Source of the DNA: Escherichia coli
Lineage (GTDB): Bacteria; Pseudomonadota; Gammaproteobacteria; Enterobacterales; Enterobacteriaceae
Length of the DNA stretch: 9,090 nucleotides
Assembly (NCBI RefSeq): GCF_003334355.1
Contig: NZ_QOWP01000060.1
Reading direction: 5' to 3' (one strand)
Shown: positions 3,524 to 3,888 of the stretch, in pieces
Numbering within the stretch: position 1 is the first letter of the stretch
Layout of the letters: each line of letters opens with the position of its first letter
Made by a program: the position numbers and the translations under genes
The notes under the pieces: generated by a model
Seen by the model: only the letters and a program-made list of their open reading frames with translations
The model's database searches: none
Told to the model about the DNA's origin: nothing

Positions 3524-3888
3524 ACCATAGACAACATGAATATTAATGTTACTATCTGGTTGAGACTGTTGATAAAACGTAAAAAGGAATGCTCTGTTCC
3601 TGCAACTGAACAGGCGTGAAACGCTATCCAACAGGATGGATACCGTTTTGTCAGCCAGTTTTATAGATCACACTTATGAGTATGCGTGTTTCATTTACGG
3701 CCAGGAATGCTGATGATGACAACATTACTACCCGTTTTCACTAAGCCTTCCCCGTTGGCGCTCAATGCTCTGCGCGCTGGTCGTATTTGCCGTTTCCTTC
3801 TTATCCCGGATGGAAGAATCCGCTGAACGTCGTTCGGCGGCAGTTGTAACACGCGTCGTTTGCTTACAGGGATTATGGCGGGTCGATT

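What the first reader, a model, noticed from the sequence alone, without database searches (positions are those of the whole stretch)
3703..3826. Candidate unannotated small ORF with SD in the yhiJ-yhiI intergenic region
AGGA at 3703-3706 is followed by ATG codons at 3707, 3713 and 3716, opening a frame of 37-39 codons (…MMTTLLPVFTKPSPLALNALRAGRICRFLLIPDGRIR) that ends at TGA 3824-3826, about 60 nt before yhiI. The region has core-like GC content. It could be a small protein or leader peptide for the yhiI-rbbA-yhhJ operon, or chance. It falls below the ORF-track length cutoff.
Basis: seen in the sequence. Interest (0 to 1): 0.25.

Follow-up and report, generated by a model that had tools for sequence, protein, structure and literature searches.

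The report
Known small gene yhiY, likely leader ORF
The flagged small ORF is real, but it is already the annotated and experimentally validated 37-codon E. coli gene yhiY, which most likely acts as a translated leader ORF in a premature-termination switch ahead of the yhiI-rbbA-yhhJ transporter operon.

Summary
In detail: AGGA at 3703-3706, ATGs at 3707/3713/3716, and a TGA at 3824-3826, 62 nt before yhiI. It is not unannotated. Window 3713-3826 is yhiY (b4790, Pfam PF23514), annotated in RefSeq and present in 5413 of 5426 complete E. coli genomes.

- Onc112/retapamulin start-site profiling placed the start at the second AUG (3713).
- The protein was detected by mass spectrometry.
- Term-seq found a Rho-dependent 3' end 20 nt after the stop codon, and the authors flagged yhiY-yhiI as a possible uORF regulator.

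My comparison of 27 leaders from seven genera adds three points:
- The start region and codons 1-7 are almost invariant at the nucleotide level.
- The rest of the ORF changes in sequence, length (3-98 codons) and reading frame.
- Nucleotide blocks and helices are kept, namely a long-range closing helix and a hairpin holding the stop codon, together with a C-rich, G-poor ORF body.

This favours a cis-acting translated leader in a Rho-dependent attenuator over a conserved protein. The mechanism is inferred, not shown.

Verdict: already known, low interest.

The parts
3528..3555 (+). Sigma-70-type promoter of the yhiY-yhiI-rbbA-yhhJ transcript (-35 TAGACA, 16-nt spacer, TG-extended -10 TACTAT), with the transcription start at about 3562.
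   Evidence: One search found it as the only promoter-like site in 3400-4000. The 5'UTR clone of Adams et al. begins GAGACTGTTGATAAAACG, which is window 3562. The same TAGACA...TAGTAT promoter lies upstream of the leader in B2 E. coli, E. albertii, Salmonella and Citrobacter.
3562..3664 (+). A structured 5'UTR segment found only in K-12-type strains, ending at a strong Term-seq 3' end. It is not part of the conserved leader.
   Evidence: It folds to -34.2 kcal/mol with z=-4.36 and 0 of 200 shuffles as stable. The Term-seq 3' end at K-12 3630827 equals window 3664. The segment is single copy and present in 4283 of 5426 genomes. It is absent from B2 strains and other genera.
3682..3692 (+). P1 5' arm (AUGCGUGUUUC) of a long-range closing helix.
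   Evidence: RNAalifold predicted it independently in the Escherichia/Citrobacter/Salmonella set and in the Klebsiella/Raoultella set. Seven of its 11 pairs form a standard pair in all 27 leaders, with UA/UG/CG variation. Base-pair probability is at least 0.7 in 19 of 27 single-sequence folds.
3696..3704 (+). P2 5' arm (UACGGCCAG), which overlaps the first two bases of the yhiY Shine-Dalgarno.
   Evidence: There is a C-G (Escherichia) to A-U (Klebsiella group) exchange at columns 27:137.
3703..3706 (+). Shine-Dalgarno AGGA of yhiY.
   Evidence: Read directly. GGA is invariant in the 27 leaders.
3713..3826 (+). yhiY coding sequence, 37 codons plus TGA (MMTTLLPVFTKPSPLALNALRAGRICRFLLIPDGRIR).
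   Evidence: RefSeq annotation, Pfam PF23514, start-site ribosome profiling and mass spectrometry.
3719..3733 (+). Codons 3-7, ACA ACA TTA CTA CCC. All are rare codons and they are nearly invariant at the nucleotide level across genera.
   Evidence: these codons make up 0.08, 0.08, 0.07, 0.01 and 0.09 of their families in yhiI-rbbA-yhhJ. Of the surrounding 58-nt block, 52 positions are invariant in 18 genomes, against 44 of 355 yhiI third codon positions.
3710..3790 (+). C-rich, G-poor ORF body, a candidate Rho-utilisation (rut) region.
   Evidence: The C/G ratio reaches 1.9-2.0 here, against about 1 upstream and 0.3-0.6 in yhiI. C/G is 1.6-3.0 over the first 90 nt of the ORF in 26 of 27 leaders despite sequence divergence.
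3777..3785 (+). P2 3' arm (CUGGUCGUA) inside the variable part of the ORF.
   Evidence: The core YUGGYC is conserved within otherwise unalignable sequence.
3793..3816 (+). P3 hairpin, the conserved nucleotide block UUUCCUUCUUAUCCCGGAUGGAAG.
   Evidence: The block is conserved whichever reading frame the ORF uses. Support is moderate: 80% of cells are paired.
3820..3840 (+). P4 hairpin (CCGCUGAAC-GUC-GUUCGGCGG) with the yhiY stop codon UGA (3824-3826) in its 5' arm.
   Evidence: 98.7% of cells are paired, and three pairs change on both sides. Pair probability is at least 0.82 in 18 of the 19 Escherichia/Citrobacter/Salmonella-group leaders; S. diarizonae is 0.63. In Citrobacter and Salmonella it is followed by UUUUGUG or CUUUGUG.
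3846..3856 (+). P1 3' arm (GUAACACGCGU). Position 3846 is also the Rho-dependent Term-seq 3' end, 43 nt before yhiI. A second 3' end lies at 3824.
   Evidence: Adams et al. supplement: K-12 3630645 is flagged Rho-dependent 'Yes' and 'uORF', and 3630667 is a second end. Coordinates were mapped through.
3889..4956 (+). yhiI, a HlyD-family membrane fusion protein and first gene of the regulated operon yhiI-rbbA-yhhJ.

Best explanation
The ORF is yhiY, a 37-codon gene that starts at the second ATG (3713) and is genuinely translated. This part is shown. Its most likely function is in cis, as the translated upstream ORF of an attenuator in the leader of yhiI-rbbA-yhhJ. This part is inferred. The transcript starts at about 3562. 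Ribosomes load at the strongly conserved AGGA/AUGAUG site and translate through a C-rich, G-poor stretch to a stop codon that sits inside hairpin P4. While yhiY is translated close behind RNA polymerase, the ribosome covers the rut-like RNA and opens P4, so transcription continues into yhiI. When initiation or early elongation fails, for example through P2 pairing with the Shine-Dalgarno region or slow decoding of the conserved rare codons 3-7, the C-rich RNA is left bare. Rho then terminates just past P4, giving the 3' end at 3846. The long-range helix P1 can form only in read-through transcripts. The physiological signal is unknown.
For: Identity:
- RefSeq annotates yhiY at exactly 3713-3826.
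- Pfam family YhiY matches at E=1.4e-29.
- Onc112/retapamulin peaks fit the second AUG.
- YhiY was seen by top-down, DIA and PRM mass spectrometry at about 1000-3000 copies per cell.

Attenuation:
- Term-seq found a 3' end 43 nt upstream of yhiI, scored Rho-dependent and labelled uORF.
- A yhiI fusion rose more than 2-fold in rhoR66S, and yhiY-yhiI is listed among candidate uORF regulators.
- Overproducing the anti-terminator CspD raises expression of the operon associated with yhiY.

Comparative evidence, 27 leaders from 7 genera:
- The start region and codons 1-7 are nearly invariant: 52 of 58 nt, against 12% of yhiI third positions.
- The rest of the ORF varies in sequence, in length (3, 37, 45-46, 57 or 78-98 codons) and in reading frame.
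- C/G skew is conserved in the ORF body.
- P4, which holds the stop codon, is 98.7% paired with compensatory changes, and seven of the 11 P1 pairs form a standard pair in all 27 leaders.
Against: - No experiment has tested whether yhiY translation affects yhiI expression.
- The E. coli leader alone folds no better than shuffles (z=0.28). P1 has low probability in E. coli single-sequence folds (0-0.5).
- Covariation is mostly one-sided (U-A to U-G), the sequences are related, and the tested structure was derived from these same sequences.
- The protein accumulates to measurable levels. Within Escherichia the last 15 codons show, by my hand count on the sequences, 4 synonymous changes against 1 non-synonymous. 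One of the synonymous changes breaks a predicted P3 pair. A protein role in Escherichia is therefore not excluded.
- Rho termination was also mapped inside yhiI (file 2), so the rhoR66S effect is not specific to the leader.
Confidence: 0.6

Rival explanations
1. YhiY is a trans-acting small protein. For example, it could be a partner or modulator of the YhiI-RbbA-YhhJ ABC exporter encoded downstream, as AcrZ is for AcrB. Its position in the leader would then be incidental.
For: It accumulates to about 1000-3000 copies per cell and is seen as an intact species by top-down MS. In Escherichia the C-terminal 15 codons carry 4 synonymous changes against 1 non-synonymous (hand count). The motif F-L-L-I-P-[DE]-G-x-x-R-stop is shared by Escherichia, C. 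amalonaticus, Pseudocitrobacter and S. diarizonae. A Pfam family exists.
Against: - In six C. freundii-complex species and in S. enterica the ORF reads the same nucleotide block in another frame (SFLSRME...).
- In Klebsiella and Raoultella it is 78-98 codons with an unrelated sequence, and in Kluyvera it is 3 codons.
- The protein is basic, not predicted to span a membrane (read from its sequence), and has no homologue outside this locus.
- The N-terminal codons are conserved at synonymous sites too, which a protein constraint does not explain.
Confidence: 0.2
2. YhiY is a sensory arrest peptide of the TnaC, MdtU or ToiL kind. The nascent chain, through the conserved MMTTLLP N-terminus or the IP[DE]G..R-stop C-terminus, would stall the ribosome in response to a small molecule or antibiotic. 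The stalled ribosome would then block Rho or open P4.
For: The layout matches such systems: a uORF, a Rho-dependent 3' end close to its stop codon, and a downstream exporter operon. The N-terminal seven residues are invariant in the 19 Escherichia/Citrobacter/Pseudocitrobacter/Salmonella leaders, and only the MMTT or MTT start is kept in the Klebsiella group and Kluyvera. A second Term-seq 3' end lies exactly on the U of the UGA stop codon at 3824.
Against: The C-terminal motif is out of frame in many genera. N-terminal conservation is at the nucleotide level, including third positions, so it need not reflect the peptide. No ligand or stall has been reported, and no pause data were available to me.
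Confidence: 0.12
3. The conserved object is an RNA element, a riboswitch-like or protein-binding structured leader (P1-P4), and translation of the ORF is a by-product with no regulatory role.
For: Nucleotide blocks are conserved independently of reading frame. The P1 closing helix is found independently in two divergent groups. Kluyvera keeps P1 and the start region with only a 3-codon ORF.
Against: The most conserved segment is precisely a translation-initiation region, with SD, two AUGs and the first codons. An ORF of 37-57 codons that ends in or shortly after P4 is kept in the 19 Escherichia/Citrobacter/Pseudocitrobacter/Salmonella leaders, and longer ORFs from the same start in seven of the eight Klebsiella-group leaders. 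Translation is strong enough to be detected by two methods. No Rfam family matches, and the junctions lack conserved unpaired nucleotides outside the initiation region.
Confidence: 0.1

Closest known systems
yhiY (b4790) of E. coli K-12, Pfam PF23514
   Same: It is the same gene at the same coordinates, 3713-3826 (K-12 3630665-3630778, minus strand). The 37-residue product is the one RefSeq annotates in a strain with an identical intergenic region.
   Different: Nothing differs for the window itself. Outside Escherichia the 'family' is held together mainly by the N-terminal seven residues and a nucleotide block that is read in two frames.
mdtU-mdtJI (uORF-dependent control of Rho termination; Adams et al. 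2021, PMC7815308)
   Same: A small uORF lies in the leader of an exporter operon, with a Rho-dependent 3' end shortly downstream. It was reported in the same study, which lists yhiY-yhiI as an analogous candidate. Both operons respond to CspD overproduction.
   Different: For mdtU the dependence on uORF translation and the ligand (spermidine) were shown, and the conserved part is the peptide's C-terminus. For yhiY neither was tested, and the C-terminal half is not kept in one frame.
tnaC-tnaAB leader (from established knowledge, not tested here)
   Same: It is a short leader ORF whose stop codon lies next to the site where Rho acts, so ribosome occupancy there decides between termination and read-through.
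   Different: TnaC relies on conserved residues of the nascent peptide and on tryptophan. No ligand or conserved in-frame C-terminus is seen for yhiY.
pyrL-pyrBI and other translation-coupled attenuators (from established knowledge, not tested here)
   Same: A leader ORF of about 40 codons is translated through or into a terminator hairpin, and close coupling of ribosome and polymerase prevents termination. In Citrobacter and Salmonella, P4 is followed by a U-rich run like an intrinsic terminator.
   Different: In E. coli the run after P4 is CAGUUGUAA, and no intrinsic terminator was called. Termination there is Rho-dependent. No alternative antiterminator pairing was found.

Membership tests
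YhiY small protein (Pfam PF23514; RefSeq 'protein YhiY') | Sequence matches the family model over its full length. | tested here: met
   hmmscan gives E=1.4e-29, model positions 1-37 of 37, residues 10-46 of the GTG-extended ORF, so the match starts at ATG 3713.
YhiY small protein (Pfam PF23514; RefSeq 'protein YhiY') | It lies immediately upstream of yhiI on the same strand. | tested here: met
   It is 62 nt upstream of yhiI in the window. RefSeq shows the same arrangement, as do Salmonella and Citrobacter contigs.
YhiY small protein (Pfam PF23514; RefSeq 'protein YhiY') | The ORF is translated in vivo. | not testable with these tools
   Taken from the literature: start-site ribosome profiling and mass spectrometry.
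uORF-controlled Rho-dependent attenuators (tnaC, mdtU, toiL type) | The uORF lies in the 5'UTR and is co-transcribed with the regulated operon. | tested here: met
   A promoter-like site lies at 3528-3555, the published 5'UTR clone starts at 3562, and no terminator-like site was called between yhiY and yhiI.
uORF-controlled Rho-dependent attenuators (tnaC, mdtU, toiL type) | There is Rho-dependent termination in the leader downstream of the uORF. | not testable with these tools
   From the literature: the 3' end at -43 is scored Rho-dependent, and the fusion rises more than 2-fold in rhoR66S. Sequence is consistent: C/G is about 2 in the ORF body in 26 of 27 leaders.
uORF-controlled Rho-dependent attenuators (tnaC, mdtU, toiL type) | Termination depends on translation of the uORF. 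| not testable with these tools
   No published test was found. The only indirect support is conservation of the initiation site with a free-running peptide sequence.
uORF-controlled Rho-dependent attenuators (tnaC, mdtU, toiL type) | A defined signal (ligand, antibiotic or amino acid) modulates ribosome progress on the uORF. | not tested
   No signal is known, and nothing in the literature searches bears on it.
Classical ribosome-mediated attenuators (trpL, leuL, pyrL type) | An intrinsic terminator (GC-rich hairpin plus U run) lies after or within the leader ORF. | tested here: inconclusive
   P4 is conserved. A U-rich run follows it in Citrobacter and Salmonella but not in E. coli, where no terminator-like site was called.
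Classical ribosome-mediated attenuators (trpL, leuL, pyrL type) | There are mutually exclusive antiterminator and terminator pairings. | tested here: not met
   RNAalifold on the whole leader and on its 3' half gave only P1-P4 and no conserved alternative to P4.
Classical ribosome-mediated attenuators (trpL, leuL, pyrL type) | There is a run of regulatory codons for the controlled amino acid. | tested here: inconclusive
   Codons 3-7 (Thr Thr Leu Leu Pro) are all rare and conserved. There are only two of each, and the operon has no known link to these amino acids.
Rfam cis-regulatory RNA families | The sequence matches a curated covariance model. | tested here: not met
   There were no hits at E<=1 in window 3300-4100. 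The Salmonella, Klebsiella and Citrobacter loci had no hits in the leader.

The most novel reading that the evidence does not exclude
yhiY may not primarily be a protein gene. It may be the translated core of an undescribed structured leader RNA, absent from Rfam, that is conserved from Escherichia to Klebsiella. In this reading, a long-range helix P1 encloses the ORF, P2 touches its Shine-Dalgarno, and the stop codon sits in hairpin P4. An almost invariant initiation region with five conserved rare codons would act as the sensor of translation efficiency that sets Rho-dependent attenuation of the YhiI-RbbA-YhhJ exporter.
Probability: 0.35. Interest if true: 0.4.

Novelty: already known. Interest (0 to 1): 0.1.

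Why it matters
For the scan, this is a true positive that re-discovers an annotated gene.

Biologically, yhiY has no assigned function. The cross-genus pattern found here has three features:
- an invariant initiation region;
- a peptide whose reading frame is not kept between genera;
- conserved helices and C-rich composition.

This pattern gives a concrete, testable reason to treat yhiY as a regulatory leader of a poorly understood ABC exporter operon (yhiI-rbbA-yhhJ) rather than as a conserved protein. That refines a hypothesis already stated in the literature. It is not a new kind of system.

Tried and rejected
- **Rfam:** scans of the window leader and of the Salmonella, Klebsiella and Citrobacter loci gave no family.
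- **NCBIfam:** there is no model for the peptide.
- **Thermodynamic test on the E. coli leader alone:** z=0.28, no support.
- **GcvB pairing with the conserved ACAACAUUAC at codons 3-6:** rejected. The longest contiguous pairing is 10 nt, lies elsewhere, and is reached in 544 of 1000 shuffles. RNAduplex on the full sequences was uninformative.
- **CsrA idea (invariant ACAGGGAUU at 3865-3873 and other GGA motifs):** no literature link to yhiI. Left untested.
- **Alternative pairing between the P3 block and the yhiI ribosome-binding region:** none predicted.
- **The 'riboswitch entropy' paper that mentions yhiI:** its hit is a different locus.
- **Searches for a function or inducer of yhiI-rbbA-yhhJ:** nothing useful.
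- **Supplements of the GcvB and RIL-seq papers:** not held in the library.
- **The 117-nt K-12-type 5'UTR segment as a repeated or mobile element:** rejected. It is single copy and has no relatives in the fetched loci.

Full report
**Observation**

- AGGA lies at 3703-3706.
- ATGs lie at 3707, 3713 and 3716, in one frame.
- TGA lies at 3824-3826, and the yhiI ATG at 3889, leaving a 62-nt gap.

The ORF list gives the same frame from an upstream GTG (3686..3826, 46 codons). Sixteen ORFs of at least 20 codons overlap 3500-4000, so an open frame of this size is not evidence by itself.

**Identity**

The ORF is already annotated.
- A megablast of the yhiJ-yhiI spacer against 5,426 complete E. coli genomes matched 5,413 of them. 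Nearly every listed hit carried the feature 'yhiY: protein YhiY'.
- In a strain with an identical spacer, the annotated CDS maps to window 3713-3826.
- In K-12 MG1655 it is b4790, YP_010051203.1, at 3630665-3630778 on the minus strand.
- Window positions 181-9090 are 99.91% identical to K-12.
- The peptide matches Pfam PF23514 'YhiY' end to end, E=1.4e-29. NCBIfam has no model for it.

**Published evidence**

- Weaver et al. found the ORF as ORF9/yhiY by ribosome profiling with Onc112 and retapamulin. They used peak spacing to place the start at the second of the three AUGs, which is 3713.
- A 2025 proteomics study detected YhiY by top-down, DIA and PRM mass spectrometry at roughly 1000-3000 copies per cell.
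- Adams et al. mapped RNA 3' ends here. K-12 3630645 is 43 nt before the yhiI ATG, which is window 3846, and was scored Rho-dependent and tagged 'uORF'. K-12 3630667 is at -65, which is window 3824.
- Their yhiI fusion rose more than 2-fold in rhoR66S, and they list yhiY-yhiI among candidate uORF-dependent regulators.
- Their 5'UTR clone starts at window 3562. This fits the only promoter-like site in the region: TAGACA, 16 nt, then a TG-extended TACTAT at 3528-3555.
- A later study reports that overproducing the anti-terminator CspD raises the operon associated with yhiY.
- In Salmonella, a 5'UTR-derived RNA of the yhiI transcript was seen on Northern blots.

**Conservation test**

I fetched yhiI loci from one genome per species, several E. 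coli lineages, and Salmonella and Citrobacter contigs. I then compared 27 leaders from Escherichia, Citrobacter, Pseudocitrobacter, Salmonella, Klebsiella, Raoultella/Enterobacter sp. and Kluyvera. Three results stand out.

1. **The start region is nearly invariant at the nucleotide level.** A 58-nt block runs from 25 nt upstream of the SD through codon 7 (ATGAGTATGCGTGTTTCATTTACGGCCAGGAAyGCTGATGATGACAACATTACTACCC). It is invariant at 52 of 58 positions in 18 genomes. In the same genomes only 44 of 355 yhiI third codon positions are invariant. Codons 3-7 (ACA ACA TTA CTA CCC) are all rare. They make up 0.08, 0.08, 0.07, 0.01 and 0.09 of their codon families in the downstream operon.

2. **The rest of the peptide is not conserved as a protein**.
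   - Escherichia, C. amalonaticus, Pseudocitrobacter and S. diarizonae end in FLLIP[DE]G..R-stop.
   - Six species of the C. freundii complex, and S. enterica, read the same conserved nucleotide block (TTCCTTCTTATCCCGGATGGAA) in another frame (SFLSRME.PAE).
   - S. enterica runs on to 57 codons.
   - The Klebsiella and Raoultella versions are 78-98 codons and overlap yhiI.
   - Kluyvera has 3 codons.
   - One Escherichia sp. genome (E1V33) has a +1 frameshift after codon 13.

3. **Within Escherichia the picture is mixed.** By hand count on the sequences, codons 14-22 change mostly non-synonymously. The last 15 codons show 4 synonymous changes and 1 non-synonymous change. One synonymous change in E. 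albertii breaks a predicted RNA pair. A protein-level constraint inside the genus cannot be excluded.

**RNA features**

RNAalifold on the Escherichia/Citrobacter/Salmonella set gives four helices:
- **P1:** 3682-3692 with 3846-3856, closing the whole leader.
- **P2:** 3696-3704 with 3777-3785, touching the SD.
- **P3:** a hairpin at 3793-3816.
- **P4:** a hairpin at 3820-3840, whose 5' arm contains the UGA.

An independent run on the Klebsiella/Raoultella set, whose 3' half is otherwise unalignable, again gives P1 and a P2-like helix.

On the 27-sequence alignment:
- Seven of the 11 P1 pairs form a standard pair in all 27 rows, with UA/UG/CG variation.
- P4 is 98.7% paired, and three of its pairs change on both sides.
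- The named structure pairs 86% of cells, against 35-42% when the partners are slid.

In single-sequence folds, P1 has probability of at least 0.7 in 19 of 27 leaders. In E. coli it is only 0-0.5.

Caveats apply. The sequences are related, the structure was derived from them, most changes are one-sided, and the E. coli leader alone is no more stable than shuffles (z=0.28).

Composition is also conserved. The C/G ratio is about 2 in the ORF body, against 0.3-0.6 in yhiI, and 1.6-3.0 in 26 of 27 leaders. This is what a Rho loading site looks like. The Rho-dependent 3' end at 3846 falls 6 nt after P4, on the first base of the P1 3' arm.

**Mechanism**

Shown:
- The ORF is translated.
- The leader carries a Rho-dependent 3' end just after it.
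- The initiation region, the helices and the composition are conserved, while the peptide is not.

Inferred:
- yhiY works in cis.
- A ribosome translating close behind the polymerase masks the C-rich RNA and opens P4, allowing read-through.
- Failure to initiate or to clear the first rare codons exposes the RNA to Rho.

The signal is unknown. I put about 0.6 on this combined statement. Identity alone is above 0.98. The rivals are a trans-acting small protein (0.2), a ligand-sensing arrest peptide (0.12), and an RNA element with incidental translation (0.1). They are not mutually exclusive.

**Comparison with known systems**

The object is yhiY itself. It resembles mdtU-mdtJI, tnaC and translation-coupled attenuators such as pyrL. 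The defining functional features, dependence of termination on uORF translation and a signal, are untested. A classical terminator/antiterminator alternative was looked for and not found. No Rfam family covers the leader.

**Verdict**

This is a correct observation of an already known, annotated and validated small gene. The regulatory reading is already proposed in the literature. The comparative analysis here sharpens it but does not make it new. Interest is 0.1.

Noticed in passing
window 3562-3664 (+): K-12-type strains carry an extra segment of roughly 105-117 nt (3556-3672 was the query used) between the promoter and the conserved leader. The RNA from the start site, 3562-3664, folds very stably (-34.2 kcal/mol, z=-4.36, 0 of 200 shuffles): a 16-bp closing stem, two inner hairpins, then UUUUAU. 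Its end at 3664 (K-12 3630827) is the strongest Term-seq 3' end in the region. No gene or ncRNA is annotated there and there is no Rfam hit. It may be an unannotated 5'UTR-derived RNA of about 103 nt, or a terminator placed upstream of yhiY.
   Followed up: partly
window 1-3523; loci L082, L083, L085, L002: The yhiL-yhiJ block is absent from the B2-type E. coli loci examined, and the E. albertii upstream flank matches them. In the B2-type loci yhiM lies directly upstream of the yhiY promoter. 4283 of 5426 E. coli genomes have the K-12 arrangement. This looks like an island insertion next to the leader.
   Followed up: partly
window 3676-3744 (+): A second small ORF in another frame (MSMRVSFTARNADDDNITTRFH) overlaps the yhiY start. 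Its internal ATG at 3682 is present in all 27 leaders. In the C. freundii complex this frame runs on into ...FLLIPDGISR-stop. It has no Shine-Dalgarno. Whether it is translated is unknown.
   Followed up: partly
locus L084 (E. coli strain E423), 1792-2598: An IS1A element is inserted inside yhiY. The match to the window begins at 3729, so the promoter, leader 5' half and first codons are replaced. rbbA is annotated as a pseudogene in the same strain.
   Followed up: no
window 3865-3873 and 3888-3894 (+): ACAGGGAUU about 20 nt before yhiI, and UAUGGAU at the yhiI start, are GGA motifs. The first is invariant across the 19 Escherichia/Citrobacter/Pseudocitrobacter/Salmonella leaders, and its GGA is invariant in all 27. 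The AUGGA core of the second is invariant in all 27 leaders. From memory they resemble CsrA binding sites. No literature link was found.
   Followed up: no
locus L003 (Escherichia sp. E1V33), 2324-2461: One extra C in the CCCC run after codon 13 shifts the yhiY frame. This gives a 45-codon product with an unrelated C-terminus, while the downstream nucleotide blocks stay intact. It could be real or a homopolymer assembly error.
   Followed up: no
window 1-180: The first 180 bases of the window do not align with K-12 MG1655, while 181-9090 are 99.91% identical (8 mismatches). I did not look at what the first 180 bases are.
   Followed up: no
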